Notes: generated by a model not told the origin, from the letters alone. DNA of 64,000 nt from Smithella sp. (GCA_017993615.1 JAGOMJ010000002.1:13508-77507), one strand, 5' to 3'. Shown: positions 22,221 to 47,594, numbered from the stretch's first letter. Translations and numbers: made by a program.

Positions 22221-22289
22221 AAAACCTCCAGAGTATTCCGAGCTGTATGATCATGTTCTCATGGTGAACATGATATCATGTTTTTCGAT

Positions 22290-28042: not shown

Positions 28043-28057
28043 ACATGCAACAAACAT

Positions 28058-28133: not shown

Positions 28134-28149
28134 TGCAAAATATCTGACC

Positions 28150-35251: not shown

Positions 35252-35866
35252 TTATTTATTTTGATGTGGCACATCTTTTTCTCGCGTGCGATGCGCCATG
35301 ATATTTATTCTATGATTGTACAGAATGAGTATCCATGTCATTAAAGAACCTGCGATCGCGCCCCAATTCCAATGGGAATGATAAGCCTGTCCGCAGGCGA
35401 GAGTAAAAACCATAAAAAAAGAAGCAATAAAAGGCATCCGGACTAGTCCGTAAACAAGCAGCCAGACAGCGCAGGAAAGCATCGCTGCCCACGGTGAAAC
35501 AAGAATCGTAAATCCCAGATAGTTGGCCACCCCTTTTCCGCCGCGAAATTCATGAAAACACGGATAGCTGTTGCCGAGGACAAGAAAATAACCGGCCCAG
35601 GGGAGCCATGCGGGTTCCAAATAATACATGGCTAGCACCGCGACCAGCATCGCCCGGCCGATGTCGAGCAGAAAAATAACGGCCGCCCACACCATGCCTG
35701 CCTGACGGTAAACGTTTGTGGTTCCCGCATTGCCGCTGAACCCGAGACGGGGATCCTTTCTGCCTGTCAGTTTAAAAAAAATAATAGCAAAATTAACTGA
35801 TCCAGCCAGATACGCTAAAAGAAATATTGAAAATGTTTTACCCATAATGAGACTCGCTGAGAACAA
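35252..35866 (-). CDS. plsY: glycerol-3-phosphate acyltransferase PlsY
   Basis: 204 aa polytopic protein with YLAGSVNFAI, SGNAGTTNV and FRGGKGVA. Confidence 0.85.
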   Translation of the reverse strand: MFSASLIMGKTFSIFLLAYLAGSVNFAIIFFKLTGRKDPRLGFSGNAGTTNVYRQAGMVWAAVIFLLDIGRAMLVAVLAMYYLEPAWLPWAGYFLVLGNSYPCFHEFRGGKGVANYLGFTILVSPWAAMLSCAVWLLVYGLVRMPFIASFFMVFTLACGQAYHSHWNWGAIAGSLMTWILILYNHRINIMAHRTREKDVPHQNK

Positions 35867-35947
35867 GTAAAACGAAGTTTGAAGCGCTAGTCAACTTATC
35901 TCAGGCACGTCGTGCCGCGGGATACCCGTCAATTTTACCCTTCGCTC

Positions 35948-36811
35948 TCAACTATTAACCTTGATCCAATCCGGCGGGTTCATCCTTCCATTCGTTACAT
36001 CTTTCATTATAATGCCGCTGACGCTCTCATAGAGAACGTCGTCCTTGTAAATCCAGACATCAAAAATCAGCGATTCCCTGGTTATGCTGACCGGAACAAC
36101 ACGGCCGAGATATTCCTGCCCTTTTTCCGTTTTTTGATAAATGAGTCTTTTTTCAAATCCAACCGGGAAGCAAACTTTGCCGGCAAAGCGCTGCCCCCAG
36201 ACGCAGGCAGCGTGCATGACAGCATCCAGAGGAAAAGGGGATCCGAGCAATTCATCGTCAGCCTCAAAATTTCCACCTGAAACGTATCCCAGAGCGCCTT
36301 CGGAAGAGACCGACAAATCGCCGATGATGTTTTGATAGGCAATGCCGAAAGGAACCAGATCGCGATAGACGGTAGCGGACGGAATGCTGATACAGCTGCC
36401 CTTCAGTTTATCCACCGAGCGAAAAGAAGGCGGACCTGTTTCTTCAAAACCCGAGATCACACATTCCGCTCTTGCGTGTTCGACATGACGGCTGATTGTG
36501 CCTGTTTTTGACTGGACGGACGTCAGAAGCGACGCAATCATGTTGCCGCCCTCCGTTTTTATGATATCGATAACCGCCGGCTGGCGATGGTTATCCGGCG
36601 CCAGGTAAAGAAATCTTGAAAAAGCGGCTTTCTGAATGCATTTTATCTCGCTCTGCAAAGAAACAGCCCGGCACGCTCCGGCCAAAATAATCAGCGATTC
36701 CACTGCAGGGAGGATCGCTCTGTTTTCCAGGTGATGATCCCGCAGATATGGATATATCTCGAGATCAAACGGATACCGCTGGCGTTCATTTAAACCGGAA
36801 ATGTTTTCCAT
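35948..36811 (-). CDS. stand-alone PKS-type (double hotdog) dehydratase
   Basis: YLRDHHLENRAILPAVE fits H-x3-(G/N)-x4-P, and LDAVMHAA fits D-x3-(Q/H). Start trimmed to ATG 36811 (MENISG). Overlaps the upstream thioesterase gene by 22 nt. Confidence 0.55.
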   Translation of the reverse strand: MENISGLNERQRYPFDLEIYPYLRDHHLENRAILPAVESLIILAGACRAVSLQSEIKCIQKAAFSRFLYLAPDNHRQPAVIDIIKTEGGNMIASLLTSVQSKTGTISRHVEHARAECVISGFEETGPPSFRSVDKLKGSCISIPSATVYRDLVPFGIAYQNIIGDLSVSSEGALGYVSGGNFEADDELLGSPFPLDAVMHAACVWGQRFAGKVCFPVGFEKRLIYQKTEKGQEYLGRVVPVSITRESLIFDVWIYKDDVLYESVSGIIMKDVTNGRMNPPDWIKVNS

Positions 36812-37269
36812 AGATGAACCGTTTTCGCATCCACAGCCACGGGCGTGCCTGACAGATTCAAGGCGCAATGTTTAGTAAAACCGGCGCAAATGATATTTCC
36901 TTTTTCCTGATGCGTAATCAGATAGTCGAACTGCAGACGCACCCGCTCCAGATTGACCGGCCGTGTATGGATATACATGACGTCATCATAATAAAGAGGC
37001 TGATGAAAGCTGATGGCAAGATCGAAAATGGGATAAACATAGCCGCCGTCTTCGATCTCCTTGTACGGATAGGCAAGATCGCGCATCAGCGACGTGCGGC
37101 CGAATTCAAAATAACGCAGATAGTTGGAATGATAAACCACCTGCGAGCGATCCGTATCGATATACAAAACCCTGTACACTGAACGATGCCAGACAAGGCC
37201 GGTTGTCAGATCGCGCACGTAGCGTTCATCGTTATGGTATATTTCAGGCTTGAAAGGTTTGGGTTTCAT
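36790..37269 (-). CDS. hotdog-fold thioesterase (4HBT/YbgC type)
   Basis: Start trimmed to ATG 37269 (MKPKPF), 1 nt after the KAS stop. YIDTDRSQVVYHSNYLRYFE motif. Confidence 0.7.
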   Translation of the reverse strand: MKPKPFKPEIYHNDERYVRDLTTGLVWHRSVYRVLYIDTDRSQVVYHSNYLRYFEFGRTSLMRDLAYPYKEIEDGGYVYPIFDLAISFHQPLYYDDVMYIHTRPVNLERVRLQFDYLITHQEKGNIICAGFTKHCALNLSGTPVAVDAKTVHLWKTFPV

Positions 37270-37270
37270 C

Positions 37271-38536
37271 TTAGACTCCTCTGAAAATGACACAGCAGTT
37301 TGTTCCGCCAAATCCGAATGCGTTGGAAAGAGCGATGTCACATTTATTTTTTCGGGCCTCATTGGGTACGACATCAATGTCGGAAAATTCCGGATCGGGC
37401 ACGTGATTGATGGTCGGTAAAATAATTCCTTTTTTCATTCCTTCAATCGTCAGGGCCGCTTCAATGGCCGCGGTTGCTCCCAGCGTATGCCCCAGTTGCG
37501 ATTTATTTGACGATACGGGAATTTTTTCGATTTTTTTGCCGAACACCTCGCGCAGGCATTTTATTTCTGTGGTATCCCCCTTCGGTGTCGAGGTTCCGTG
37601 GGCATTGATATATTGAATATCTGTCGGCTCCAGTTCCGCATCGTCAATCGTTTCCCGGATGGCACGGATGATTGTCGGCATGTTGGGGCTGGTGTAATGA
37701 TGAGCATCCGACGTCCAGCCGATGCCCAGAACTTCGGCTTTCGGTTTGAGGCCATAGGTTTTGATCGCCTCATCCGCCGCCAGAACAACAACGCCGGCTC
37801 CCTCCGATAGAACAAATCCCTTACGATCAGCACTGAATGGCCTCGAAGCCAGTGCGGGATTATCATATGCCCGATCTTTAGGATTAACTTTTATGGTGGC
37901 ATTCATATTAGCAAAACCGTGAATCAGCTCCGGCAGAATGGGCGTATCGGCGCCGCCGGCCAGAACAAAATCGCAATCGCCGTCCCGGATCATTCTCGCC
38001 CCGATGCCGATGGCATGGTTGCCGGAGGCGCAGGCGCCTTGCGGCGAAAAAATCGGTCCGGTAAATTTCAACAGCATGCCTGCCTTCCCGGAGGGAAGAT
38101 TCGCGCACAAATTGGGAAGCAGATACGGGCTGACCCGCAGTGGTCCGCGGTGATCCAGATCATGCACGGCAATGCGAAAAGCATCCGAGCCGTTGAGTGC
38201 CGAACCGATCAGACAGGCCATCCGCGGAGCAATCTGTGCGTCGACAACGATACCGGCATTTTCCAGTGCCTCCTTGCAAACGGCCATCGTCAGGATCACA
38301 AACGCCGCGTTCCAGTTATAAACTTCTTTGGCGTCGGTAAAATCAAGTTCCATCGGATACCAGTCGGGGATTTCTCCGACCACGTCGCAGGCGGATTCCA
38401 CTTTACAGCGGGTAACCTTGCGGAAACCGGCCTCGCCTTTCACCGCCCTCTTCCACGTTTTTTCAAACGTGCTGCCCAGCGGTGTGGCTGCACCGTAACC
38501 GACGACAAAAACTCTTCTGTTTTTGGGCGCTCTCAT
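37271..38536 (-). CDS. beta-ketoacyl-ACP synthase (elongating KAS I/II type), copy A
   Basis: 421 aa with a Cys-His-His triad context: GACASGNHAIG, SDAHHYTSP, INAHGTSTPKGD, GHTLGATAAIE. Confidence 0.85.
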   Translation of the reverse strand: MRAPKNRRVFVVGYGAATPLGSTFEKTWKRAVKGEAGFRKVTRCKVESACDVVGEIPDWYPMELDFTDAKEVYNWNAAFVILTMAVCKEALENAGIVVDAQIAPRMACLIGSALNGSDAFRIAVHDLDHRGPLRVSPYLLPNLCANLPSGKAGMLLKFTGPIFSPQGACASGNHAIGIGARMIRDGDCDFVLAGGADTPILPELIHGFANMNATIKVNPKDRAYDNPALASRPFSADRKGFVLSEGAGVVVLAADEAIKTYGLKPKAEVLGIGWTSDAHHYTSPNMPTIIRAIRETIDDAELEPTDIQYINAHGTSTPKGDTTEIKCLREVFGKKIEKIPVSSNKSQLGHTLGATAAIEAALTIEGMKKGIILPTINHVPDPEFSDIDVVPNEARKNKCDIALSNAFGFGGTNCCVIFRGV

Positions 38537-38627
38537 AATTTGCCTTTTTTATGTCATTTCGGGTGTCTTGAGCAATCTTTTCTTTAAATTGCCATATCGA
38601 CCAGGGATTGTCTCGCCATGACAATCA

Positions 38628-39878
38628 TCATTCTGTTCTGTGCAAGATGATGCAGGAATTGCATCCGCCGAAGCCGAACGCATTTTTCAAGACAAATTCC
38701 TGTTTAAGGTTCCTCGCACCTTCCGCGACGCAGTCTATTGCAATGTCCTGATCAGGACGATAATTGATCGTCGGCAAAACAATCTCTTTTTTCATGCCTT
38801 CCATCGCGAGGATGGCTTCAATGGCGCTGGAGGCGCCCATCGCATGGCCCATTTGAGATTTATTCGCCGATACCGGCGGCACATGGCCGCCGAAAATATT
38901 TTTCAAAGCATCGGCCTCCACTTTATCGCCGATCTTTGTTGACGTCGCATGCGCATTAACCGCATCGATGTCCTCCGGCTTTAATCCGGCATTGGCTATT
39001 GTTTCTTCGATGCACTTCCGCACAGTTGCCAAATTCGGGGACACAAAGTGACTGGCGTCCGATGTCATGGCCCATCCGGCCATTTCCATGCCGGACGGGA
39101 GCCCGTGGACTTTTGCAAATTCGCCCGTTGCCAGAATAATGCAACCGGCTCCTTCGGAAACGACAAAACCGCGCCGGTTTGCAGAAAACGGTCTGCTGGT
39201 TTTTTCCGGCGGTTCTTCAGGCTGTCCTTCTTTGGGCCGGTATGCGCCGTTCATCGTGGCAAAGCCCGCAACAATCGGCTCCACCAGCGGAAAATCGACC
39301 GCACCGGCAATCACCACATCCGCCATATTTCGCTGCAACAGCATCTCGCCAATGATCATCGACGTAATGCCGGTGGCACAGGCCGTGATGGTTGAACAAA
39401 TCGGTCCCGTTGCACCGGTGAGAATGGAGATCTTGCCGCCGACCATATTGATGCAGGAATTGGGATTGGTAAACGGATGAGGCAGCTTGCCGTCCTTCAC
39501 CATCAGGCGATCGGCCTGCAAAACGGCATCCAGTCCCCCGACCGCCGAGCTGAATGTGACGGCGACTCGGGGCGCGATGTCGCGCGTAATTTCAATCCCG
39601 CTGTTCTGCAAAGCGCGATGCACAACCAGCAGCGCGTATTTGAAAATGGGTGACGTCCAGTGCGCCATTTCTCTGGGCTGCAAAAACGGATACGGACCCG
39701 GATCGATTTCCTCCACCTCGCCGGCCACGCGTACCGGAAAATTTTCACTGAGCGGGAATCTGGTCAACCGGCCGATGCCGCTTTTTCCGGCAACCGCTTG
39801 CCGCCATTGTGCATCCAGCTGCGCCCCCAGTGACGATACGGCATCATAACCCACGATGACGGTTTTTTTCAACCCCAT
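38628..39878 (-). CDS. beta-ketoacyl-ACP synthase (elongating KAS I/II type), copy B
   Basis: 416 aa with TACATGITS, SDASHFVSP, VNAHATSTKIGD and GHAMGASSAIE. Confidence 0.85.
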   Translation of the reverse strand: MGLKKTVIVGYDAVSSLGAQLDAQWRQAVAGKSGIGRLTRFPLSENFPVRVAGEVEEIDPGPYPFLQPREMAHWTSPIFKYALLVVHRALQNSGIEITRDIAPRVAVTFSSAVGGLDAVLQADRLMVKDGKLPHPFTNPNSCINMVGGKISILTGATGPICSTITACATGITSMIIGEMLLQRNMADVVIAGAVDFPLVEPIVAGFATMNGAYRPKEGQPEEPPEKTSRPFSANRRGFVVSEGAGCIILATGEFAKVHGLPSGMEMAGWAMTSDASHFVSPNLATVRKCIEETIANAGLKPEDIDAVNAHATSTKIGDKVEADALKNIFGGHVPPVSANKSQMGHAMGASSAIEAILAMEGMKKEIVLPTINYRPDQDIAIDCVAEGARNLKQEFVLKNAFGFGGCNSCIILHRTE

Positions 39879-39967
39879 GCTCCGACCTTAAAAATAAATC
39901 GATATCCCCTGAAAATAAATTAAAGGGGGATTTTGATAGAGGGACCTATATCAAAATTTTCGGGGGA

Positions 39968-40972
39968 TTACCACGGAATAAAGTGATAGAGCTTGGCAAA
40001 CATCTCGTAAACTTCGATCCAGTTTTGCAGATCTCTGGTTGATTTCAGATGTTCACGCTTGTTGACCATGACCCAGCTCATATGCGCCGCGCCGTCTTTG
40101 CAGGTGGAGCAATCGCGTGTCGCGGACGTACAGCAGCGATGAACGGTTTTCAGATCGGATGCCCAGCGGGCAAAATGAATCAGCCGGCGGGGACGGTTTG
40201 CTCTGTTATCCAGGGCTTCGGTAACGGACGGACATTCATTCCAGCCGAAACGTCGTCCCATCATTTTCCCGGTGGTAATGATTTCATGATAGTATTTGCA
40301 GGAAATGACCGTCTGCGGATAGGTGTCGAGCATCTCATCCATTTCGTGACAAAGATCTTTGAGCTCGCCCTCCTGCCAGGAAAAACCGTCGACACCCTCG
40401 TCATTGGATAAAAGTTGCAAGTGGACTTTCAATCCGACATCGGCAATGCGTTTAATGACCGGTTCAATTTTGCCGACCTGCCGCGGCGTAATGGTATAAA
40501 GATAATAGGTATAGGCATCCCCTTCGTAATTTTTGCTGGAGACGGCAAACGTGTCGCGTCCGCGCAGAATTTTTTCATCTTCAGCGCTGCCCCAAAGCGA
40601 AATGCCCACCATCATATCGGGGAATCTGTCACGCGGAACTTTAATCAACCCGTTGGTGGCACAATACGTGGGCAGCCGTTTATAAAACGCCTCGACGCGG
40701 TCCAGACAAAGCGTCGGCTCACCGCCGATCAGAATCGCCAGGTTCACGCCCCTTTCTTTTTCGCGATCGATAAATGCTTCCCATTTTCCGATATCCATTT
40801 CTTCGACCGCCGCCTGATGCTCGCCCGAAGAAAAGAAAAAACAACCCTTGCAGCGTAAATTGCACCGGTTGGTCACATCATAGATGGAACTGCGGATATT
40901 CAGGTTGGAAATCCTTCTGTATCGATCGTGCCATTCTTTGTCCAGCAGGGAACTGACTGTTTTCATCTTCAC
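39968..40972 (-). CDS. radical SAM enzyme (paralog 1) with a C-terminal Cys cluster
   Basis: 334 aa with YDVTNRCNLRCKGCFFF (CxxxCxxC), IGGEPTL, ATNG and C-terminal RCCTSATRDCSTCKDG. Confidence 0.8.
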   Translation of the reverse strand: MKMKTVSSLLDKEWHDRYRRISNLNIRSSIYDVTNRCNLRCKGCFFFSSGEHQAAVEEMDIGKWEAFIDREKERGVNLAILIGGEPTLCLDRVEAFYKRLPTYCATNGLIKVPRDRFPDMMVGISLWGSAEDEKILRGRDTFAVSSKNYEGDAYTYYLYTITPRQVGKIEPVIKRIADVGLKVHLQLLSNDEGVDGFSWQEGELKDLCHEMDEMLDTYPQTVISCKYYHEIITTGKMMGRRFGWNECPSVTEALDNRANRPRRLIHFARWASDLKTVHRCCTSATRDCSTCKDGAAHMSWVMVNKREHLKSTRDLQNWIEVYEMFAKLYHFIPW

Positions 40973-41015
40973 TATCCTACATCATATCATTGCGACTTTA
41001 CATACCATCCGGATG

Positions 41016-42146
41016 TCATTTCGGGTGCAATGGCACGTTTTGTTTCTTTTCAACCGCCGCGCGCGGCGGTTCTATGATTTCATTACAGAGATTCTCACCC
41101 TTCTCATAGTTCATCACCCAGACCGCCAGATACGTATCGACATAATCCAGCCAGGATTTGAATGTGGCCAGATTCGTCACGTGGCGGTAGAGTCGCGCCG
41201 TCACCACTGCGGAGCCTGCAGCGTAATGGCGGCAGTCCGCGCAATCCGTATCCGGTACGCAGCAGGCCACCGACCGGTCCCAGTTCAGGTCCGTTCTGTA
41301 CTGCCTGAAAGATCTGCCCAGCCCGATATCCTGCGACGGATTCTGACGGGGATAGGAACAGCTGTAAAGATCGTGCAGGCCTTTTCGATGCGTATGCGCT
41401 ATGGCATTGTAAACGGAAAAAAGAACATTGCGCGGATATTGATTTAAAAGCTCAATCATGGTCTGTCTCGTTTGCTCAAGCGATGCATCATCATGCCGGA
41501 GATTTCCGGCATATCCGACCGGCGCAGAAAACACATTAAACGTTAATTTGCAGTCATGGGCGGCCAGCTCTTCCGTTACTTCGTTAACCTCATCAATATT
41601 ATTCCTCGTAAATGTATAGACAAAAACCGCGCGCGGATCGTTTTCGTAATTTTCAATCTGTTTTTTCAGAAGGTTTTTGGCCTTTCTGATTTTCAGGCTG
41701 GTTTCATCACTGCCCCAGACGGAGATGTGCAGTTTATAACCGACGGACGGTGGAATCTTTCTGAAGCCATTGGTGGCAATGCTGCCCAACGGCATTTCCT
41801 GATAACAGACCTCCAGCAATTCCGGAACAAGCGAAGGTTCCGCGCCCGCCAGAACGACGTAGGTTATACCGCGTGCTTTTTCCGCTCTCATCAATGCGCG
41901 CCAGGCCTCCACATCGCCGACCTCTTTGGCGAATTGCTTTTCGCCTTCATAATAATAGCAGCCGTCACAGCGGATATTACAGCGGTTGGTCATATCGTAA
42001 GTCGATTCGCGCAGAAAAAAATACTTTCTCACCTTCTCCCAGCGCGCTTTGACTTCGGGATGGGCTAGAAGCTCGGAAAATTTCGGTTTGACGGACTCCG
42101 TATTTACCTTGTTGTTTACCTGATTGGCCATCTCGCATTCTGTCAA
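41016..42146 (-). CDS. radical SAM enzyme (paralog 2) with a C-terminal Cys cluster
   Basis: 376 aa with YDMTNRCNIRCDGCYYY, AGAEPSL, ATNG and C-terminal ACCVPDTDCADCRHY. The start abuts the stop of the upstream ACP gene (0-nt gap). Confidence 0.8.
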   Translation of the reverse strand: MTECEMANQVNNKVNTESVKPKFSELLAHPEVKARWEKVRKYFFLRESTYDMTNRCNIRCDGCYYYEGEKQFAKEVGDVEAWRALMRAEKARGITYVVLAGAEPSLVPELLEVCYQEMPLGSIATNGFRKIPPSVGYKLHISVWGSDETSLKIRKAKNLLKKQIENYENDPRAVFVYTFTRNNIDEVNEVTEELAAHDCKLTFNVFSAPVGYAGNLRHDDASLEQTRQTMIELLNQYPRNVLFSVYNAIAHTHRKGLHDLYSCSYPRQNPSQDIGLGRSFRQYRTDLNWDRSVACCVPDTDCADCRHYAAGSAVVTARLYRHVTNLATFKSWLDYVDTYLAVWVMNYEKGENLCNEIIEPPRAAVEKKQNVPLHPK

Positions 42147-42437
42147 TTAATGTCTGACCGGAAGCCTTTCTTTAATATATTCTGAAATCAGACGAATGGT
42201 TTTCAACTGGGGATAATCATCCTCGTCTATGGTAATTCTGTATTCATCCTGAAGAACCAGTGCGATCGTGGCCAGGTCCATGCTGTCAATACCCAGTTCA
42301 TCCACCAGATCCATATCCGGATCAAAGGTATCCGCGGTCGCTTCTTCCAGCTTCAACTCATCAATAATGATTTCGGCTACACGCCGTATAATGCCTTTAA
42401 CATCTTGACTTGCAGGCATCACTTCCCTCCTTACCAT
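42147..42437 (-). CDS. acyl carrier protein (ACP-1)
   Basis: 96 aa with DLVDELGIDSMDLATIALVL (phosphopantetheine Ser in the DS motif). Confidence 0.8.
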   Translation of the reverse strand: MVRREVMPASQDVKGIIRRVAEIIIDELKLEEATADTFDPDMDLVDELGIDSMDLATIALVLQDEYRITIDEDDYPQLKTIRLISEYIKERLPVRH

Positions 42438-42458
42438 GCATATTTATATTTATTTTTA

Positions 42459-42830
42459 TCACATCATTTTTTTGGCAGCAATCATTCCGCTGCTGACCAT
42501 TGTATCTCTGCAAAAAATTTTAAAATGAAACAAGCGTTCTCCATCCGCCTCTGCCGCACGGATATTCAACGATAACTGATCACCCGGCCTTACCGGTTGC
42601 ATAAACCGGATTCTCTTCAAAGTATGCAATTCAAGCCGCTCGCCTTTCTTTTGCGCTTCCCGGTGAATGGCCTGCTTTACCGCATAAACCAGAGCAATGC
42701 CCGGAAGAATCGGCTCACCCGGAAAATGACCTGAAAACCAGGGGGAGTCTGCCGGGACATCGGCTAAGGCCTCGATATCATTAGAATCAGCTTCTCTTGT
42801 TTCTTTTAACAAATTCCATTGATTTTTCAA
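42459..42830 (-). CDS. FabZ-like hotdog dehydratase (non-canonical)
   Basis: 123 aa with SPWFSGHFPGEPILPGIALVYAVKQ. The His is present, but the position of the FabZ catalytic Glu is Tyr. Confidence 0.65.
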   Translation of the reverse strand: MKNQWNLLKETREADSNDIEALADVPADSPWFSGHFPGEPILPGIALVYAVKQAIHREAQKKGERLELHTLKRIRFMQPVRPGDQLSLNIRAAEADGERLFHFKIFCRDTMVSSGMIAAKKMM

Positions 42831-42957
42831 TCAATATACCTCATTGGCAAATGCCCGGCATACGTTCGGGGCCAAAAAGTATAACTGCATATCATTGTTT
42901 GCTTTTTCAATCAAAAATTTTTTACAAGGTCAACAATTAATTATAGATGACGCGATC

Positions 42958-43758
42958 TTACATCATTATGGATACGTGCCTGCCGATTAAATCGGCGAGG
43001 GGAACGACGTTTAACCCCTGTTTTTTTAGCCCCCGCAGTATCTTTTCGATTTCGACCAATAAAACAGCCTGGTTTCCCCCACCGCGCGGCAATGCATCGT
43101 GCAGCAATAAAATGTCGTCTGCTTTGACGCTGTGTAATATCCGGGAACTTAAATTTCTAATGCGACGGTTGCCGAAATCACCGCCTCGGCAACTGAATGT
43201 CACGCAAAACATTCCCAGTTTATCCAGGACGGACGGCAGTTTAGGGCTGATGATGCCCACAGGCGGCCGGAAAATCAACGTATTGACACCCCTGTCTTTC
43301 AGGATGTCCTGAGCTTTGGATACTTCGTTATAAAGATAACGATAACTGCCCAACATCAAAAACGGATTGTGATGGAATGAATGATTGCCGACGGTGTGCC
43401 CGCGTCGGATGATTTCCCTGACGATGTCCGGATGCTTCAAAGCATTGACACCGGAAACAAAAAAAGTCGCTTTGACCGAATAGCGATCCAGCAGATACAG
43501 AATCCGTCTTGTCGTCGGTTCGGCCGGTCCGTCGTCGAACGTCAGAGCAACGACATTCCTGCCGGTTCTCCCCCGGCTGATGACAGGCAGGTAGAAACTG
43601 CTTTGCGGGAAAAACGAAGCGGCAACGCACAGAACAATATAAAAAAGAGCGACGGCTGCCGCGGCCAGTGGATGAAAGAAAAAAATCACAGCCGCGGCAA
43701 GCAAAAGAATGACTCCGGTCATTTCAGCAGGGTTTGCAGATGACAATTTCTTTTTCAT
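42958..43758 (-). CDS. membrane-anchored polysaccharide deacetylase (NodB homology domain)
   Basis: 266 aa with two N-terminal TM segments, then VALTFDDGP and GNHSFHH NodB motifs. Confidence 0.75.
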   Translation of the reverse strand: MKKKLSSANPAEMTGVILLLAAAVIFFFHPLAAAAVALFYIVLCVAASFFPQSSFYLPVISRGRTGRNVVALTFDDGPAEPTTRRILYLLDRYSVKATFFVSGVNALKHPDIVREIIRRGHTVGNHSFHHNPFLMLGSYRYLYNEVSKAQDILKDRGVNTLIFRPPVGIISPKLPSVLDKLGMFCVTFSCRGGDFGNRRIRNLSSRILHSVKADDILLLHDALPRGGGNQAVLLVEIEKILRGLKKQGLNVVPLADLIGRHVSIMM

Positions 43759-43963
43759 GGATAACCGCTACACGGGTATGGTGCATTCCGTGAATGCGCC
43801 GTTTTGAACTGTCAGGGGAACAGTCCCTGCAATTCTGATGTTTCAGCCTCTCATATTTCCGGAGTCACTCTCAAGGGCACTTCGCCCGCCTCTGCGGGCA
43901 GGACAAAAAAAGCAGCATTGAGTTACGGTCCGGACGTTTTTAAATATTTACGAAGTTATATTT

Positions 43964-45340
43964 TTACTGAATCAGATACTCCCATAACGGTCCGGTGAAT
44001 CCGCGTCTGTAAAGTTTCGGCAGGATGCGTGTGGCCTTGGCTTCGCCGGCGCCGATCAGCCAGTTCAACCGGCCGTTGGCATGATTTTCCACCGTCTTCA
44101 TAATCTCTTCAACACGGATTCCCTGAGAACGGTAAAACACGGGCGGCAGAATATTTTCCCCCGCTTTGATCTGGCCTTCGCGCACGGCAACATCATAAAG
44201 CGCCGTGTGCGGGTAGATGCGAATGCCGCAGAAGAAAAAGAAGACCGCTCTTTCCAGCTTATCGATTCCCATCAGAGTTGCCTGCAGCGTTTCTTTGTTC
44301 TCGCCGGGACCGCCCAGCAGAAAATAATGCGCCACATATAATCCGGCGTCCAGCGCTTCGCGGTGCGCCGTGAAAACATTTTCCGACGTGAAGGGTTTAC
44401 GCAGATTCTCCAGCACCTGATCGGATAAAGATTCCGTGCCGAATTCCACGTGGGTCAAACCGGCATCCGCCAGACGCTTGAAGTAATCGGCTGGAGGAAC
44501 GGTGGAGGCAAAAAAACCTCCCCAGGGGATCGACACGCCCGCCTTCGTAAAAGCCTTCGCCACCTGAGCGCTGTGTTCGTAGCTGGCATTGAAGGCGGAA
44601 TCGGTAATAAAAATATATTTGGCACCGGCATCCTGTAATGCGCGGGCGCTGCGGGCGATCTCCTCCGGATCATAGCATCGCATCTTACCGCCCTCGATAT
44701 GGGGATAGGTACAGTAGCCGCAACGGAAGGGACAGCCCCGTTTTGTCTGGAGATTGAGCATTCCCCCGTACGCAAGATAAAAGCGCGTGTGAGTTTCTTC
44801 GGGATCAAAATGTCTGTTGAGTCTTCCGCCAAAAGGTTCGTAGACAATATCCGTTTTAACGCTGGTCAGGACACCGGGAATTTTGTTCACATCCTCATTT
44901 TTCTCCCACGCGTCCAGAAGCAGTGCAAGTCTTTCGCCTTCCCCCACGATTCCGTAATCGGCATCGAGCGCCTGCATGAACTCGCGGGGAAAAATCGTGA
45001 AGCCGCTGCCGCCCAGAATGATTTTAGCCCTGGAATTTTTTCTGATCTGGCCGACTAACGTCTCGTATTCGGTAAGAAAACTGCGACAGTTGATCGCATC
45101 GGTATTATCGATGTTTCTGATGGAAATTCCCACAACATCGGGAGAAAATTCCCTGATCATTGCTTCCAGTGTTTCCGGATGGGGAAAAACGTTCAGATCG
45201 ACAATTTTTGTCCGGTAGCGGTAATCCAGGCAACCGGCTACATAATCCAGCCCCAGCGGATACACCGGATACGGGTTTTTCAGAGTATTGGCGGAAATCA
45301 ACAGCACGTTCATCATAGGAATAGTGGTTGTTTTGCGCAC
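43964..45340 (-). CDS. B12-binding-domain radical SAM enzyme (class B type)
   Basis: 458 aa. N-terminal Rossmann-like VLLISAN..PLGLDYVAG, then KRGCPFRCGYCTYP (CxxxCxxC). The start is uncertain (GTG 45340 or ATG 45316/45313). Confidence 0.75.
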   Translation of the reverse strand: MRKTTTIPMMNVLLISANTLKNPYPVYPLGLDYVAGCLDYRYRTKIVDLNVFPHPETLEAMIREFSPDVVGISIRNIDNTDAINCRSFLTEYETLVGQIRKNSRAKIILGGSGFTIFPREFMQALDADYGIVGEGERLALLLDAWEKNEDVNKIPGVLTSVKTDIVYEPFGGRLNRHFDPEETHTRFYLAYGGMLNLQTKRGCPFRCGYCTYPHIEGGKMRCYDPEEIARSARALQDAGAKYIFITDSAFNASYEHSAQVAKAFTKAGVSIPWGGFFASTVPPADYFKRLADAGLTHVEFGTESLSDQVLENLRKPFTSENVFTAHREALDAGLYVAHYFLLGGPGENKETLQATLMGIDKLERAVFFFFCGIRIYPHTALYDVAVREGQIKAGENILPPVFYRSQGIRVEEIMKTVENHANGRLNWLIGAGEAKATRILPKLYRRGFTGPLWEYLIQ

Positions 45341-45347
45341 AATGACA

Positions 45348-45626
45348 TTAAACCGTTTTTTTCTGATGATTGAGGATATGATCGGCCAGCGCGCTGACGG
45401 AAGCGAAAACCTTTACCCCCAGTTTCTTGCTATCGATCTTGACGCCATAATCCTTTTCGATCATCATGACCAGTTCCAGCACATCGATGGAATCGATTCC
45501 CAGATCACCGCCGACCAACCGTTCATCGTCCTGGATGTCATCGGGGCCGACATCAATCAACCCCAGTGTCTCGATAATTTTGATTTTCAGTTCTCTTATC
45601 ATTTCTTCGGTGTTACTCATTCGCAT
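45348..45626 (-). CDS. acyl carrier protein (ACP-2)
   Basis: 92 aa with GDLGIDSIDVLELVMMIEKDYG. Confidence 0.8.
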   Translation of the reverse strand: MRMSNTEEMIRELKIKIIETLGLIDVGPDDIQDDERLVGGDLGIDSIDVLELVMMIEKDYGVKIDSKKLGVKVFASVSALADHILNHQKKTV

Positions 45627-46029
45627 CTCCTGTCATGTCGATATTTTTATTCGGCTTGGAGGCGATTATTTTCGCTTCGTCACCGAGAATTTTCTCCAGC
45701 ACCACTCTCACCACACATTTTCCGAGCGTTTTCGCATATTCGGGGCCGGTAAGATACATCCCCAGCATCATGATCAGCCACGAAAAACCGTAGGCCAGAG
45801 GAATGCCTATAACACCAACCATCGGTTTTCGCAACCTGGCAGCCATAAGCCCCACCATGAAGAACAACGGCAGAACGATGATGTAACTTAAAACAATCAG
45901 AACGATTCCGATGGTCACGCCAAGGGTGTGTTTCTCTTTCAGAAGACTCAAATCCGCGCATTCGTTAATGGCGTTCCGGCAGAATTCTTTTCGGGCAAAA
46001 TAGGCCGCCGTTTTTTTAACGATATTCAA
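45613..46029 (-). CDS. small membrane protein (about 3 TM), unknown function
   Basis: 138 aa with a TTG start and weak RBS. Hydrophobic segments are VTIGIVLIVLSYIIVLPLFFMVGLMA and IGIPLAYGFSWLIMMLGMYL. Overlaps the ACP-2 start by 14 nt. Confidence 0.4.
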   Translation of the reverse strand: MNIVKKTAAYFARKEFCRNAINECADLSLLKEKHTLGVTIGIVLIVLSYIIVLPLFFMVGLMAARLRKPMVGVIGIPLAYGFSWLIMMLGMYLTGPEYAKTLGKCVVRVVLEKILGDEAKIIASKPNKNIDMTGDANE

Positions 46030-46113
46030 AATATTTCCCTAAAAAACCAACGATCAATATTTTAATGATATTTTTCAGCAGAACCGGAAGAACAGCCTTG
46101 ATGATCAGACGGA

Positions 46114-46704
46114 TTACCTTTCCATGATTCCGCCGATCGAATATTTTGAACGGCGCGGGTAATCTTTGTAGGCAATATCCTTGAAAACACCGACACGGGC
46201 CTGTCCGACAGTGTAAATCAATTCATGATCCACATAAACGCGTCCATCGCCGATGACGATGCTTGCGCCGGATTCCTTCAGCATCGAATAACGACGCACA
46301 TCAACTTCATAGCGAACACATTTGTTAAAAGGGCGAATCTGACCGTTGAAAGCAACATCGCCGCACCCCAATGCCCTGCCTGTTCCCAGTGCACCCCTCC
46401 AAACGCAGAAAAAACCCAGCAATTGCCATAATCCGTCCACCCCGAGACATCCGGGCTGTACCGGATCGCCCTGGAAATGGCACTGAAAATACCAGGCGTC
46501 CGGTCTGATATCCTGTTCCGCAATTATTTTACCTTTCTTGCCGTCACTTTCAATGGACAATATGCGATCCACCATCAGAAAAGGCGGCGCCGGAAATTTC
46601 GCGTCAAAATGTTCCGGCGGATCGTCGACAAGCTTGCCGTAAGCAAACGCCAGAATTTCTTCAAAATCAAACCGGGCTCTCTTTAAAAATTCCTGATATT
46701 TCAT
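46114..46704 (-). CDS. fabA: 3-hydroxyacyl-ACP dehydratase/isomerase, FabA type
   Basis: 196 aa. PAPPFLMVDRI..WYFQCHFQGDPVQPGCLGVDGLWQLLGFF closely follows the E. coli FabA active-site region (His and Asp present). Confidence 0.8.
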   Translation of the reverse strand: MKYQEFLKRARFDFEEILAFAYGKLVDDPPEHFDAKFPAPPFLMVDRILSIESDGKKGKIIAEQDIRPDAWYFQCHFQGDPVQPGCLGVDGLWQLLGFFCVWRGALGTGRALGCGDVAFNGQIRPFNKCVRYEVDVRRYSMLKESGASIVIGDGRVYVDHELIYTVGQARVGVFKDIAYKDYPRRSKYSIGGIMER

Positions 46705-46901: not shown

Positions 46902-47594
46902 ATGAACAGATCCGCTCTTCACAAAATCAGCTACGGCCTTTACATCGTCACGTCCGGTCAGGACGGTAAATTCAACGGTCAGATCGCCAATTCCATGTTT
47001 CAGGTTACCTCCAGCCCGGCAACCGTGGCCATCAGCATCAATAAGGAAAACTACACGCATGCATTGATAAAAGAAAGCCGGAAATTTGTCGTTTCGATCT
47101 TGTCCGAGGCGGCGCCGATGACGCTGATCGGTCTGTTCGGATTTAAAAGCGGCCGTGACGTCAATAAATTACAGAATGTAAAGGTAAAAACCGGCGTGAC
47201 CCAGGTGCCGATCGTTCTGGACAATAGCGTATCCTACATCGAAGTCGACGTGCAAAAAGAAATGGATTGCGGAACTCATACCATTTTCATGGGCAATATT
47301 GTCGACTGCGACATGATCAGCGACGCCGTACCCATGACCTACGCTTATTATCAGCAGGTTAAAGGAGGTAAATCGCCGAAAACCGCTCCGACATATTCCA
47401 AAGAAGAACCGGCCGTCGCGGCTCCTCAGACCGTAGCGTCTTATATTTGCAGCGTCTGCGGCTATGTTTATGATCCGGTCAAAGGCGATCCGGATAACGG
47501 CATTGCGGCCGGAACAAAATTTGAAGATTTACCGGATTCCTGGACCTGCCCCATCTGCGGCGCGGATAAATCAAAATTTGAAAAAGAAAAATAA
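46902..47594 (+). CDS. flavin reductase domain fused to rubredoxin (high-molecular-weight rubredoxin type)
   Basis: The N-terminal FMN-binding split barrel ([21 protein letters not shown]) is fused to a C-terminal rubredoxin ([20 protein letters not shown]). Confidence 0.8.

What the first reader, a model, noticed from the sequence alone, without database searches (positions are those of the whole stretch)
35252..46704. Orphan FAS-II/PKS-like lipid cluster with two ACPs, two KAS and three radical SAM enzymes
Thirteen co-directional minus-strand genes sit with short gaps or overlaps. In order they are: FabA (HFQGDPVQPGCLGVDGLWQ), a 3-TM protein, ACP-2, a B12-domain radical SAM, a membrane-anchored NodB deacetylase, a FabZ-like hotdog, ACP-1, two paralogous radical SAM enzymes, two Cys-His-His KAS enzymes, a 4HBT thioesterase, a stand-alone PKS-type DH, and then PlsY. 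The cluster has no ketoreductase, enoyl reductase, acyltransferase or FabH, so it must borrow from housekeeping FAS. This combination is not housekeeping FAS II. It is not a Pfa-type PUFA synthase (no multidomain proteins), and it is not an aryl-polyene cluster (those lack radical SAM enzymes as far as I know). From memory, and to be verified, FAS-like plus radical SAM clusters were proposed but never proven as ladderane candidates in anammox bacteria, and relatives were noted in sulfate-reducing deltaproteobacteria whose product is unknown. My working hypothesis is that an ACP-tethered chain, with FabA supplying a cis double bond, is modified by radical chemistry (methylation, C-C coupling or cyclisation). 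It would then be released by the thioesterase or fed to phospholipid through PlsY.
Basis: partly seen in the sequence, partly recalled or inferred. Interest (0 to 1): 0.85.

Follow-up and report, generated by a model that had tools for sequence, protein, structure and literature searches.

The report
Orphan radical-SAM fatty-acid operon in Smithella
A Smithella-like anaerobe carries a strongly conserved 14-gene operon that combines fatty-acid-building enzymes with three radical SAM enzymes; it belongs to the still-unsolved "ladderane-like" cluster family and probably makes an unknown modified membrane lipid.

Summary
Fourteen co-directional minus-strand genes (35252-46704) encode, in order: FabA, a small membrane protein, ACP2, a B12-radical SAM enzyme, a membrane NodB deacetylase, a FabZ/ApeI-like dehydratase, ACP1, two paralogous radical SAM enzymes, two Cys-His-His ketosynthases, a YbgC-type thioesterase, a PKS-type double-hotdog dehydratase and PlsY. 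There is no KR, ER, AT or FabH.

This is not a chance juxtaposition. The core order ACP1-rSAM-rSAM-KAS-KAS-TE is kept in 47 of 50 species-level genomes, mostly Syntrophales, and these six proteins are 67-86% identical on average.

The B12 enzyme passes NCBIfam TIGR04072 ("rSAM_ladder_B12"). In more distant relatives FabA is replaced by a KS-CLF fusion, sometimes with a phytoene-desaturase-like flavoprotein. That is the parts list of anammox "Cluster I".

This is a Syntrophales variant of the ladderane-type FAS/radical-SAM clusters noted in 2009 in Kuenenia, Desulfotalea and Geobacter, whose product was still unknown in 2026.

The best reading is an ACP-tethered acyl chain that is methylated, rearranged or cross-linked by radical chemistry and then fed into membrane glycerolipid. 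The chemistry is inferred, not shown. Interest is moderate to high. It is a new variant of a known but uncharacterised kind.

The parts
46114..46704 (-). FabA (3-hydroxydecanoyl-ACP dehydratase / trans-2-decenoyl-ACP isomerase). First gene of the operon. Found in the cluster only in Smithellaceae-type loci.
   Evidence: NCBIfam PRK05174 209.8 bits (cut-off 124) and Pfam FabA 138 bits. Present in 26 related loci at 71-94% identity. Absent from loci L057-L080.
45613..46029 (-). Small membrane protein of unknown family (2-3 predicted helices).
   Evidence: No Pfam or NCBIfam hit. Hydrophobic segment at residues 33-91. Syntenic but poorly conserved, mean 47% identity.
45348..45626 (-). ACP2, the carrier protein paired with the B12-radical SAM enzyme.
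   Evidence: PP-binding E 4e-10; NF006617 66.6 bits, just under the cut-off of 70. 54% identical to the ACP that precedes KS-CLF-B12rSAM in a Ca. Electrothrix genome.
43964..45340 (-). B12-binding radical SAM enzyme, a member of TIGR04072 ('lipid biosynthesis B12-binding/radical SAM protein', rSAM_ladder_B12). The likely start is at 45316.
   Evidence: TIGR04072 386.7 bits (cut-off 360). The next-best families are BzaD (157 bits) and the Trp 2-C-methyltransferase type (117 bits). Orthologues in L063 and L073 also pass the cut-off.
42958..43758 (-). Membrane-anchored NodB/CE4 deacetylase or esterase.
   Evidence: Polysacc_deac_1 98.5 bits. Hydrophobic N-terminus at residues 8-55. TFDDG and HSFHH motifs are readable in the translation.
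42459..42830 (-). Single-hotdog FabZ/ApeI-like dehydratase.
   Evidence: Pfam FabA-like 47.1 bits and ApeI-like 31.7 bits (cut-off 28.5). PDB sequence hits are FabZs, with no preference for the presumed anammox FabZ entries (7qv0, 8ay*).
42147..42437 (-). ACP1, the carrier protein of the conserved core. The likely start is at 42419.
   Evidence: PP-binding E 1.8e-10. Below all NCBIfam AcpP cut-offs. 61-93% identical across loci.
41016..42146 (-). rSAM-A: radical SAM enzyme with CxxxCxxC and a C-terminal CCxPDxDCxxCR motif, probably an auxiliary Fe-S cluster. No named family. The likely start is at 42131.
   Evidence: Radical_SAM 30.1 bits; no NCBIfam model above cut-off. 72-94% identical orthologues. 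Family profile is closest to SkfB, E 6e-18. The structural model hits only generic SPASM/twitch-type cores.
39968..40972 (-). rSAM-B: paralogue of rSAM-A with the same Cys motifs.
   Evidence: 29% identical to rSAM-A, E 8e-38. Mean 85% identity in Smithellaceae-type loci (L001-L056) and 79% in distant ones.
38628..39878 (-). KAS-u: FabF-like ketosynthase with an intact Cys-His-His triad.
   Evidence: ketoacyl-synt N and C domains. TIGR03150 334.5 bits, below the cut-off of 493.75. Best PDB hits are FabFs, E 4e-76.
37271..38536 (-). KAS-d: second FabF-like ketosynthase with an intact Cys-His-His triad.
   Evidence: TIGR03150 384.6 bits, below the cut-off of 493.75. 41% identical to KAS-u. Mean 86% identity across Smithellaceae-type loci (L001-L056).
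36790..37269 (-). YbgC/FadM-type 4HBT thioesterase.
   Evidence: TIGR00051 83.1 bits (cut-off 68.7); Pfam 4HBT_2 and 4HBT. The ATG at 37269 lies 1 nt after the KAS-d stop.
35948..36811 (-). Stand-alone PKS-type double-hotdog dehydratase. The His motif is HxxxNxxxxP here and HxxxGxxxxP in orthologues; DxxxH is conserved.
   Evidence: Weak Pfam PS-DH hit, 22.9 against 23.7. Orthologues carry PF14765 and the NCBI name 'polyketide synthase dehydratase domain-containing protein'. H26, D196 and H200 are invariant. The top 50 Foldseek PDB hits are all PKS DH domains. It is fused to a PPTase domain in L073.
35252..35845 (-). PlsY-type acyl-phosphate:glycerol-3-phosphate acyltransferase (divergent copy). 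Last gene of the operon.
   Evidence: Pfam G3P_acyltransf 120 bits. TIGR00023 103.5 bits, below the cut-off of 137.2. Found within 4.5 kb downstream of the TE in 32 of 43 loci with enough sequence.
46902..47594 (+). Divergently transcribed flavin reductase-rubredoxin fusion. A possible electron donor for the radical SAM enzymes; the association is uncertain.
   Evidence: Flavin_Reduct 124.7 bits plus Rubredoxin 85.3 bits. Same position and orientation in 32 Smithellaceae-type loci. Not seen in the distant loci.

Best explanation
The region is one operon. It encodes a dedicated, ACP-dependent type II FAS/PKS-like line that makes a radical-SAM-tailored fatty acyl chain for a membrane glycerolipid. 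It borrows malonyl transfer, ketoreduction and, if used, enoyl reduction from housekeeping FAS.

Two modules can be told apart.

Module 1 is FabA, the membrane protein, ACP2, the TIGR04072 B12-radical SAM enzyme and NodB. It presents an unsaturated short or medium chain on ACP2. In Smithellaceae the chain would be the FabA product. In relatives the chain is built by a KS-CLF fusion, with or without a phytoene-desaturase-like flavoprotein. The cobalamin enzyme modifies this chain. The most likely reaction is C-methylation of, or methyl-derived ring formation on, an sp2 carbon.

Module 2 is the conserved core: FabZ-like DH, ACP1, rSAM-A, rSAM-B, KAS-u, KAS-d, TE and the PKS-type DH. It extends the chain on ACP1. 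The paralogous radical SAM pair, each with a probable auxiliary Fe-S cluster, performs H-atom abstraction leading to C-C bond formation, cyclisation or desaturation.

The product is either hydrolysed by the YbgC-type thioesterase or passed, through acyl-phosphate, to the operon's own PlsY and so into phospholipid.

Shown here: the gene content, the conserved order, the family memberships, and the recurrent association of this radical SAM family with carrier proteins and synthases. Inferred: every chemical step and the membrane destination.
For: Domain content and tight gene coupling.

Conservation:
- The core order ACP1-rSAMA-rSAMB-KASu-KASd-TE is intact in 47 of 50 species-level genomes.
- The six core proteins average 77-86% identity in Smithellaceae-type loci (L001-L056) and 67-79% in distant loci. 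That is more than the adjacent flavin reductase (72%) and close to citrate synthase (89%), so selection is strong.

Module 1:
- The B12 enzyme and its orthologues pass the TIGR04072 equivalog cut-off. Their next-best characterised families are the C-methyltransferases BzaD and the TsrM type.
- FabA is swapped for a KS-CLF fusion, with or without a CrtD/CrtI-like flavoprotein, in relatives. The ACP2/B12 pair also occurs as a separate ACP-KS-CLF-B12rSAM module in a Ca. Electrothrix genome.

The rSAM-A/B family sits next to carrier proteins or synthases in 5 of 8 unrelated contexts:
- beside an ACP;
- as a TubC-dock/TE/rSAM fusion after a type I PKS module;
- in a KAS-KAS-rSAMA-rSAMB-ACP-KAS-MaoC-FabH cluster;
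- beside a Pfa-type PUFA synthase and a FAAL-ACP-KS protein;
- near a PKS.

Lipid destination:
- PlsY follows the cluster in 32 of 43 loci.
- Variant clusters add a PlsC-type acyltransferase, a lipid A-type acyltransferase, an MMPL-methyltransferase fusion and a DH-PPTase fusion.
Against: There are no lipid or expression data. My literature searches found nothing on unusual lipids in Syntrophales, and no paper links these taxa with ladderane-type clusters.

PlsY is missing downstream in 11 of 43 loci. It could also be the housekeeping copy that merely sits there.

The role of NodB is unexplained and hints at a sugar or head-group step.

Three of eight distant rSAM-A/B relatives have no carrier-protein context.

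The rSAM-A model is only moderately confident and its Cys-rich C-terminus is unresolved, so nothing points to a specific reaction.

The methylase inference rests on second-best HMM scores far below those families' cut-offs.
Confidence: 0.55

Rival explanations
1. The cluster makes a non-membrane specialised metabolite. This would be a polyene-like or otherwise unsaturated acyl product in the manner of aryl-polyene or highly reducing type II PKS systems, released by the thioesterase. It would be a pigment, a signal or an envelope-anchored protectant, and PlsY would be a bystander.
For: The architecture of two ACPs, two KS, two or three dehydratases and a 4HBT thioesterase, with no enoyl reductase, resembles APE-type lines. 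The FabZ-like protein passes Pfam ApeI-like, 31.7 against 28.5. In relatives the extra KS's closest PDB sequences, after the presumed anammox KS, are the ishigamide KS 6kxd and the APE KS 6qsp. antiSMASH-style surveys call such loci BGCs.
Against: There is no CLF, KR, adenylating starter enzyme, LolA-like protein or exporter in the window. Conservation at housekeeping level across an order is unusual for secondary metabolism. PlsY, PlsC-type and lipid A-type acyltransferases recur in the clusters.
Confidence: 0.15
2. It is an oxygen-independent route to polyunsaturated or otherwise desaturated fatty acids. The radical SAM pair would act as anaerobic desaturases on acyl-ACP, and FabA or the phytoene-desaturase-like enzyme would add further double bonds. 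This is the hypothesis of Rattray et al. 2009 for the Desulfotalea and Kuenenia loci.
For: Rattray 2009 proposed this for syntenic loci and found polyunsaturated hydrocarbons in Desulfotalea. Radical SAM enzymes with auxiliary clusters commonly perform two-electron oxidations (own knowledge). An rSAM-B relative lies beside a Pfa-type PUFA synthase. Three dehydratases are present and no ER.
Against: It does not explain the cobalamin enzyme, whose nearest characterised relatives are methylases. No PUFA has been reported for Syntrophales in the literature I could search. From my own knowledge, not checked here, the Desulfotalea-type hydrocarbons were later explained in other bacteria by Pfa plus Ole genes.
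Confidence: 0.12
3. The core six genes make an essential small ACP-borne molecule, a cofactor or cofactor precursor in the way pimeloyl-ACP and octanoyl-ACP feed biotin and lipoate, rather than a lipid.
For: The core proteins are conserved very strongly, at housekeeping level. A thioesterase is present for release. Foldseek hits include biotin and lipoyl synthases among many generic cores.
Against: Those fold hits are generic (TM about 0.4). The membrane NodB, the membrane protein, PlsY and the acyltransferases in variants point to membranes. No cofactor genes are linked.
Confidence: 0.08
4. These Syntrophales actually make ladderane (cyclobutane) lipids or direct ladderane precursors.
For: TIGR04072 membership. 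Relatives carry all the part types of anammox Cluster I. The local order FabZ-ACP-rSAM-rSAM is as in kuste3339-3343.
Against: Ladderanes have only been found in anammox bacteria, and Desulfotalea had none. The window lacks the KS/CLF pair and the desaturase-like enzyme. Its FabZ-like protein and KAS are no closer to the presumed anammox structures than to ordinary FabZ and FabF.
Confidence: 0.04
5. It is a chance or merely local juxtaposition of housekeeping unsaturated-fatty-acid genes (FabA plus FabB/F-like KAS, ACP, PlsY) with unrelated radical SAM genes.
For: FabA is a bona fide equivalog. FabA plus a KAS is the classical anaerobic UFA pair. PlsY is a housekeeping function.
Against: The order is conserved in 47 of 50 genomes, including lineages that lack FabA. 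The KAS and ACPs fall below the housekeeping cut-offs. The rSAM-A/B pair recurs with KAS and ACP in an unrelated lineage in a different order.
Confidence: 0.03

Closest known systems
Anammox 'Cluster I' (Kuenenia kuste3603-3608: amxACP, amxFabZ, phytoene-desaturase-like PDH, amxFabF2, amxFabFmut, B12-radical SAM), the main ladderane candidate
   Same: The B12-radical SAM enzyme falls in the same NCBIfam equivalog, TIGR04072. A dedicated ACP sits next to it, and a FabZ-like dehydratase is in the cluster. Relatives of the window cluster (L058, L063 and others) also carry a KS-CLF pair, as a fusion, and a PDH-like flavoprotein. The KS domain of that fusion has its best PDB sequence match in entry 9s5h (E 5e-61). 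I take 9s5h to be the amxFabF heterodimer but could not confirm this.
   Different: The window itself has no CLF-type KS and no PDH. FabA and a small membrane protein stand in their place. The B12 module is fused into a larger operon with a second ACP, two more radical SAM enzymes, two active KAS, a TE, a PKS-type DH and PlsY. The organism is not an anammox bacterium. The product is unknown in both systems.
Kuenenia kuste3335-3352 and the syntenic Desulfotalea psychrophila loci (DP1853, DP1855), Geobacter and Pelobacter loci (Rattray et al. 2009; Javidpour et al. 2016)
   Same: The listed gene content overlaps strongly. It includes FabZ(3339)-ACP(3340)-FabG(3341)-rSAM(3342)-rSAM(3343), several FabF paralogues, a second ACP, a polysaccharide-deacetylase-like protein (3351) and a membrane protein of unknown function. 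A separate kuste2802-2805 unit holds a PPTase, a B12-rSAM and two FabF/B-type synthases (one non-canonical). The local order FabZ-ACP-rSAM-rSAM matches the window.
   Different: The window has no FabG, SAM methylases, phenylacetyl-CoA-ligase-like enzyme, glycosyltransferase or VacJ-like gene. All its KAS keep the catalytic triad. I could not obtain the Kuenenia or Desulfotalea sequences, so orthology of the radical SAM pair is untested.
Aryl-polyene (APE) and other highly reducing type II PKS clusters (for example ishigamide Iga11/12)
   Same: Discrete ACPs, tandem KS genes, hotdog dehydratases (an ApeI-like hit) and a 4HBT thioesterase. No ER in the cluster.
   Different: No CLF, KR, aryl or adenylating starter enzyme, or LolA/MMPL export genes. 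Three radical SAM enzymes, FabA, NodB and PlsY are foreign to APE clusters. The APE composition is from my own knowledge.
Radical SAM enzymes known to tailor acyl or isoprenoid lipid chains (Jaw5/C10P cyclopropanase on a PKS line; Tes/GDGT-MAS, Gms, Mss tail-to-tail couplers; HpnP/HpnR methylases)
   Same: The same general logic of radical chemistry on inert lipid carbon. One relative of rSAM-B is physically fused into a PKS termination module. Weak NCBIfam similarity of rSAM-A to Tes over the core, E 5e-8.
   Different: No family-level match to any of them; all scores are far below the cut-offs. rSAM-A/B form their own small family: 513 clusters at 50% identity with E of 0.001 or below, among 1.8 billion representatives. 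[quoted passage not shown]

Membership tests
TIGR04072-type 'ladderane-like' B12 module (anammox Cluster I) | B12-binding radical SAM enzyme of the TIGR04072 equivalog | tested here: met
   386.7 bits against a cut-off of 360. Orthologues score 382 and 407 bits.
TIGR04072-type 'ladderane-like' B12 module (anammox Cluster I) | KS plus an inactive CLF-like FabF partner (amxFabF2 / amxFabFmut) | tested here: not met
   Both window KAS keep Cys-His-His and no Ketoacyl-synt_2 domain is present. The feature is met only in relatives L057-L080, as a KS-CLF fusion.
TIGR04072-type 'ladderane-like' B12 module (anammox Cluster I) | Phytoene-desaturase-like flavoprotein in the cluster | tested here: not met
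   None among the 14 genes and none elsewhere in the window by tblastn. Present in five related loci.
TIGR04072-type 'ladderane-like' B12 module (anammox Cluster I) | Dedicated ACP and FabZ specifically related to amxACP and amxFabZ | tested here: inconclusive
   ACP2 and the FabZ-like protein are present, but their PDB sequence hits show no preference for the presumed anammox entries over ordinary ACP and FabZ.
TIGR04072-type 'ladderane-like' B12 module (anammox Cluster I) | Organism makes ladderane lipids | not testable with these tools
   Needs lipid analysis. The literature restricts ladderanes to anammox bacteria.
Kuenenia kuste3335-3352 / Desulfotalea-type FAS-radical SAM locus (Rattray 2009) | Adjacent pair of radical SAM genes next to FabZ and ACP, with multiple FabF paralogues and a deacetylase-like gene | tested here: met
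   Window order is NodB-FabZl-ACP1-rSAMA-rSAMB-KAS-KAS. The published gene list runs 3339 FabZ, 3340 ACP, 3341 FabG, 3342 and 3343 rSAM, with FabF genes at 3346, 3348 and 3349 and a deacetylase-like gene at 3351. This compares annotations only.
Kuenenia kuste3335-3352 / Desulfotalea-type FAS-radical SAM locus (Rattray 2009) | Sequence orthology of the radical SAM pair to kuste3342/3343 and DP1853/DP1855 | not tested
   Those sequences could not be reached. The genome scan returned only the 80 closest loci. None of the 30 distant cluster representatives looked up carried an anammox or Desulfotalea name.
Aryl-polyene (APE) cluster | KS/CLF pair, ApeQ-type ketoreductase, adenylating or aryl starter enzyme, LolA-like or MMPL export genes | tested here: not met
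   None of these domains occurs in the 14 genes. Only the ApeI-like dehydratase and the 4HBT thioesterase resemble APE parts.
Pfa-type PUFA synthase | Large multidomain PfaA/B/C/D proteins | tested here: not met
   All proteins are single-domain and at most 458 aa. PfaA HMM scores are 57 and 29 bits against a cut-off of 1010.
Housekeeping FAS II | FabF and AcpP at equivalog level, with fabH, fabD and fabG | tested here: not met
   FabF TIGR03150 scores 384.6 and 334.5 bits against 493.75. The ACP models are all below cut-off. No FabH, FabD or FabG is present. Only FabA passes its equivalog cut-off.

The most novel reading that the evidence does not exclude
Syntrophales and other Desulfobacterota make a so far undescribed class of radical-SAM-tailored membrane fatty acids: methyl-branched, cyclised or cross-linked on the ACP. 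They would do so with the same enzyme families that anammox bacteria are thought to use for ladderanes. The core enzymes are 70-90% conserved across an order that includes culturable members. That would offer the first tractable system in which to work out what TIGR04072 enzymes and the paired rSAM-A/B enzymes do, and so a way into the ladderane problem.
Probability: 0.3. Interest if true: 0.85.

Novelty: new variant of a known kind. Interest (0 to 1): 0.6.

Why it matters
Ladderane biosynthesis has been open since 2002. The anammox field treats its candidate cluster as exclusive to anammox bacteria, and those bacteria have no genetics.

This operon shows that the same B12-radical SAM equivalog, with its ACP, is embedded in a larger and very strongly conserved lipid-type operon in Syntrophales. 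Relatives in Desulfobacterota carry the complete Cluster I parts list.

It also brings forward a small, unnamed radical SAM family (rSAM-A/B) that repeatedly accompanies carrier proteins, KAS pairs, PKS modules and a PUFA synthase. A 2026 review counts only two proposed cases of radical SAM chemistry on fatty-acyl lipids.

If the product is a membrane lipid, it could be an unrecognised biomarker of syntrophic, methanogenic environments.

Tried and rejected
1. A 'PlsY-B12 radical SAM fusion' in L042 looked like direct proof of a lipid link. It is an artefact: the ORF reads through a run of N. I withdrew it.
2. A structural model of rSAM-A (pLDDT 71, Cys-rich C-terminus below 50) gave only generic radical SAM cores in the PDB (SuiB, anSME, viperin-like, BlsE; TM about 0.4). 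No function can be drawn from it.
3. The broad family alignment A1 was too divergent for the genome scan. The narrower A2 worked, but the 80 loci kept were all close orthologues of at least 72% identity. Kuenenia, Desulfotalea and Geobacter loci could therefore not be fetched.
4. Looking up 30 distant cluster representatives for organism names gave only a few alphaproteobacterial labels and no anammox names.
5. P0529 (Desulforhopalus sp. 52FAK) was not on record for a context look-up.
6. Literature searches for TIGR04072, for ladderane together with Syntrophales names, and for Syntrophus lipids found nothing relevant.
7. The PDB sequence search with the DH-like protein found nothing. The fold search was needed instead.
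8. The promoter and terminator scan and the Rfam scan found no informative regulatory element for the operon.
9. The PDB codes of the anammox FabF heterodimer are not given in the preprint text, so identifying 9s5h and 9s5i with it is an inference.

Full report
WHAT IS IN THE WINDOW

ORF listing and translation show 14 minus-strand genes between 35252 and 46704. Pfam and NCBIfam scans assign them in transcription order:
- FabA: PRK05174 209.8 bits against a cut-off of 124.
- A small hydrophobic protein with no family. Residues 33-91 are hydrophobic.
- ACP2.
- A B12-binding radical SAM enzyme that passes the NCBIfam equivalog TIGR04072, 'lipid biosynthesis B12-binding/radical SAM protein' (model name rSAM_ladder_B12): 386.7 bits against 360.
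- A membrane-anchored NodB/CE4 deacetylase.
- A FabZ/ApeI-like single-hotdog dehydratase.
- ACP1.
- Two radical SAM enzymes, here called rSAM-A and rSAM-B, that match no named family.
- Two FabF-like ketosynthases, here KAS-u and KAS-d.
- A YbgC/FadM-type 4HBT thioesterase: TIGR00051 83.1 bits against 68.7.
- A protein with weak PKS-dehydratase hits.
- PlsY.

rSAM-A and rSAM-B are paralogues (29% identity, E 8e-38), as are the two KAS (41%). Both KAS carry the active-site Cys, both His and the Lys, as read in the alignment. Both ACPs carry the GIDS serine motif.

No ketoreductase, enoyl reductase, acyltransferase or FabH is present.

Start-codon inspection shows very tight coupling: a 1-nt gap between KAS-d and the thioesterase, and overlaps at DH/TE and ACP2/membrane protein.

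The unit is bounded upstream by a divergent flavin reductase-rubredoxin gene and downstream by citrate synthase. Base composition is unremarkable relative to the rest of the window.

The only corrections concern the gene count and some start sites.

ORGANISM

The closest homologues of rSAM-A (80-94% identity) and of the dehydratase carry Smithella, Smithellaceae or Syntrophaceae labels. The window thus comes from a Smithella-like member of the Syntrophales.

IS THE ARRANGEMENT MORE THAN CHANCE?

A scan of one genome per GTDB species found at least 510 loci that encode a relative of rSAM-A. The best 80 were kept. They are nearly all Syntrophales. A few MAGs are labelled Desulfobacteraceae, Desulfobacter, Spirochaetes, Leptospirales or Gammaproteobacteria.

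tblastn of the 14 window proteins against these loci shows the same gene order throughout. Of 50 loci with enough sequence, 47 keep ACP1-rSAMA-rSAMB-KASu-KASd-TE in that order and orientation. The three exceptions break after rSAM-B and continue with unrelated genes.

Conservation per protein:
- The six core proteins are the most conserved: means of 77-86% identity in Smithellaceae-type loci (L001-L056) and 67-79% in the distant group.
- The neighbouring flavin reductase averages 72% and citrate synthase 89%.
- The B12 enzyme falls to 55%, NodB to 48%, and the two dehydratases to 37-38% in the distant group.

The level of constraint looks more like core physiology than dispensable secondary metabolism.

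MODULAR VARIATION AMONG RELATIVES

FabA and the small membrane protein head the cluster only in the Smithellaceae-type loci. In the more distant loci ACP2 is followed by a protein of about 725 aa with a full KS plus a Ketoacyl-synt_2 (chain-length-factor-type) domain. In five loci a CrtD/CrtI-like flavoprotein of about 500 aa comes next, and then the TIGR04072 enzyme.

Other accessory genes in variants are:
- a DH fused to a 4'-phosphopantetheinyl transferase;
- a PlsC-type acyltransferase;
- a lipid A-type acyltransferase;
- further B12-radical SAM genes;
- an extra ACP plus KAS;
- SAM methyltransferases;
- an MMPL-methyltransferase fusion.

In a Ca. Electrothrix chromosome the unit ACP-KS-CLF-B12rSAM stands alone, without the rSAM-A/B core. 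Its ACP and B12 enzyme are 54% and 56% identical to the window's. Homologues of the KS-CLF protein are widespread in Desulfobacterales, Desulfocapsaceae and Syntrophales.

So two separable modules exist: a B12 module and a core module. The window carries a reduced B12 module in which FabA replaces the KS-CLF and desaturase-like genes.

RELATION TO THE ANAMMOX CLUSTERS

- Rattray et al. 2009 (PMC2649909) described FAS clusters with radical SAM genes, phytoene-desaturase-like genes and many FabF paralogues in Kuenenia. They found 'striking' synteny with Desulfotalea psychrophila, and similar clusters in Geobacter and Pelobacter. They found no ladderanes in Desulfotalea.
- Javidpour et al. 2016 (PMC4790861) list the genes. 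These include kuste3339 FabZ, 3340 ACP, 3341 FabG, 3342 and 3343 radical SAM, 3346/3348/3349 FabF, 3350 ACP and the deacetylase-like 3351. Separate units are kuste2802-2805 (PPTase, B12 radical SAM, two FabF/B-type synthases, one of them non-canonical) and kuste3603-3608. Expression in E. coli gave no new lipid.
- Papers from 2023-2026 still state that nothing links any of these proteins experimentally to ladderanes. They call Cluster I exclusive to anammox bacteria.
- Metagenome surveys report expressed antiSMASH 'ladderane' clusters of unknown function in Desulfobacterota and many other phyla.

The window's local order, NodB-FabZ-like-ACP-rSAM-rSAM-KAS-KAS, mirrors the kuste3339-3351 content, and its B12 enzyme is in the same equivalog. 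The KS domain of the relatives' KS-CLF fusion has its best PDB sequence match in 9s5h chain B (E 5e-61, ten orders better than any FabF). That entry holds two different FabF-like chains. I take it to be the amxFabF2/amxFabFmut heterodimer, but the preprint text gives no PDB codes.

By contrast, the window's own KAS, FabZ-like protein and ACPs are no closer to those presumed anammox entries than to ordinary FabF, FabZ and ACP. I could not fetch the Kuenenia or Desulfotalea radical SAM sequences, so orthology of the rSAM-A/B pair is untested.

THE rSAM-A/B FAMILY

An exhaustive HMMER search of 1.84 billion representatives found only 513 clusters at E of 0.001 or below and 89 at E of 1e-30 or below. 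All share CxxxCxxC plus a C-terminal C...CC-x5-C-x2-C pattern; invariant or nearly invariant Cys residues are at positions 290, 297 and 300. This suggests an auxiliary Fe-S cluster. A family profile is closest to the twitch-domain thioether synthase SkfB (E 6e-18).

Genomic contexts of eight distant members:
- one next to an ACP in a polysaccharide-type cluster;
- one as a TubC-docking/thioesterase/radical SAM fusion directly after a type I PKS module;
- one in a KAS-KAS-rSAMA(48%)-rSAMB(36%)-ACP-KAS-MaoC-FabH cluster;
- one between a Pfa-type PUFA synthase and a FAAL-ACP-KS protein;
- one 4.5 kb from a PKS;
- three with no such neighbours.

This is guilt by association, but it is consistent: the family mostly works beside carrier-protein-dependent synthases.

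THE DEHYDRATASE

The window copy misses Pfam's threshold and has no PDB sequence hit. Its orthologues carry PF14765 and NCBI's PKS-dehydratase name. His26, Asp196 and His200 are invariant: HxxxGxxxxP in the consensus, with Asn for Gly here, plus DxxxH. An AlphaFold model (pLDDT 69) matches only PKS DH domains among its top 50 PDB hits, at E 4e-10 to 8e-7.

MOST LIKELY MECHANISM (INFERRED)

Established biochemistry says that FabA makes cis-3-decenoyl-ACP, that KAS enzymes extend acyl-ACP with malonyl-ACP, that YbgC-type enzymes hydrolyse acyl thioesters, and that PlsY transfers acyl-phosphate to glycerol-3-phosphate.

On that basis I propose the following steps.
1. ACP2 carries an unsaturated short or medium chain. 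FabA supplies it here. In relatives the KS-CLF protein, with or without the desaturase-like enzyme, supplies it.
2. The TIGR04072 enzyme modifies this chain. Its nearest characterised relatives by score are the cobalamin-dependent C-methyltransferases BzaD and the TsrM type (their functions are from my own knowledge).
3. ACP1, KAS-u, KAS-d and the two dehydratases extend the chain, with FabG and FabD borrowed from housekeeping FAS.
4. rSAM-A and rSAM-B carry out radical C-H activation, leading to C-C bond formation, cyclisation or desaturation.
5. The product is released by the thioesterase or enters phospholipid through PlsY. PlsY follows the cluster in 32 of 43 loci.

I put 0.55 on this general picture, about 0.3 on methylation as the B12 step, and less on any specific rSAM-A/B chemistry. 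NodB remains unexplained.

RIVALS

The alternatives considered are:
- an APE-like specialised metabolite (0.15);
- an anaerobic desaturation or PUFA route, as Rattray proposed (0.12);
- an ACP-borne cofactor precursor (0.08);
- true ladderane synthesis (0.04);
- chance juxtaposition with housekeeping genes (0.03, essentially refuted by the synteny).

NOVELTY AND VALUE

The kind, FAS-like clusters with radical SAM enzymes of the 'ladderane' type, has been known since 2009. It is encoded in NCBIfam and in antiSMASH rules, so it is not categorically new.

The following appear undescribed in the literature I could search:
- the Syntrophales architecture: FabA instead of KS-CLF and desaturase; the B12 module and the rSAM-pair core in one operon ending in PlsY;
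- the very strong conservation of a six-gene core;
- the wider association of the rSAM-A/B family with carrier-protein synthases.

The finding matters mainly because it challenges the view that the anammox candidate module is exclusive to anammox bacteria, and because it may give a more tractable entry to an old problem.

WHAT WENT WRONG ALONG THE WAY

An apparent PlsY-radical SAM fusion was an N-run artefact. The rSAM-A model was uninformative. The genome scan's 80-locus limit kept me from the anammox and Desulfotalea loci. Several literature and name look-ups were empty.

Noticed in passing
window 46902-47594 (+): A flavin reductase-rubredoxin fusion is transcribed divergently from FabA. It sits at the same place in 32 Smithellaceae-type loci. 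It could be the reductant for the three radical SAM enzymes, or simply a conserved neighbour.
   Followed up: partly
window 28041-28142 (-): A TPP riboswitch (Rfam RF00059, 64.6 bits) lies upstream of two ORFs, 27063-28004 and 26437-27060, that look by eye like thiamine salvage or synthesis genes.
   Followed up: no
L042 14357-16255 (-): An apparent 632-aa PlsY plus B12-radical SAM fusion is an artefact of an in-frame run of N. The real neighbour is a separate B12-binding/radical-SAM-like gene of about 417 aa. That gene is 70-84% conserved beside the cluster in L017, L019, L021, L066, L073, L075 and L076.
   Followed up: yes
L087 8001-10175 (+): A 724-aa protein fuses a TubC_N docking domain, a thioesterase and an rSAM-B-like radical SAM domain, directly after a 1754-aa type I PKS module. 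This would be a radical SAM enzyme built into a PKS termination step.
   Followed up: partly
L089 1-15421: An rSAM-B-like gene lies between a Pfa-type PUFA synthase (PfaA-, PfaC- and PfaD-like proteins) and a FAAL-ACP-KS protein plus an ACP. Next to these are two CMAS-type methyltransferases, a DUF1365 protein and an amine oxidase, a gene set that resembles furan-fatty-acid genes.
   Followed up: no
L063 13466-13783 (+) and L071 13643-17604: In some relatives foreign genes sit between KAS-u and KAS-d. L063 has a 105-aa GIY-YIG endonuclease ORF. L071 has a block of about 4 kb that includes an AAT-family protein. The pair therefore tolerates insertion.
   Followed up: no
L093 9726-13626 (Ca. Electrothrix chromosome CP147990.1): A cable-bacterium genome carries a stand-alone ACP-KS-CLF-B12rSAM module without the rSAM-A/B core. 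An amine-oxidase-type gene lies about 4 kb away. Here the B12 enzyme is called as two ORFs (B12-binding, then Radical_SAM), which may be a frameshift.
   Followed up: partly
window 21009-24732: A thiolase, a long-chain acyl-CoA synthetase-like AMP-binding enzyme and an acyl-ACP-thioesterase-like 4HBT protein lie 11-14 kb from the operon. These are fatty-acid turnover genes and are not part of the cluster.
   Followed up: partly
L029, L051, L055 (downstream of rSAM-B): In three MAG loci the cluster stops after rSAM-B and unrelated genes follow (in L051: Wzz-like, DUF3141 and an HD-GYP regulator). This could be a split cluster or a binning or assembly artefact.
   Followed up: partly
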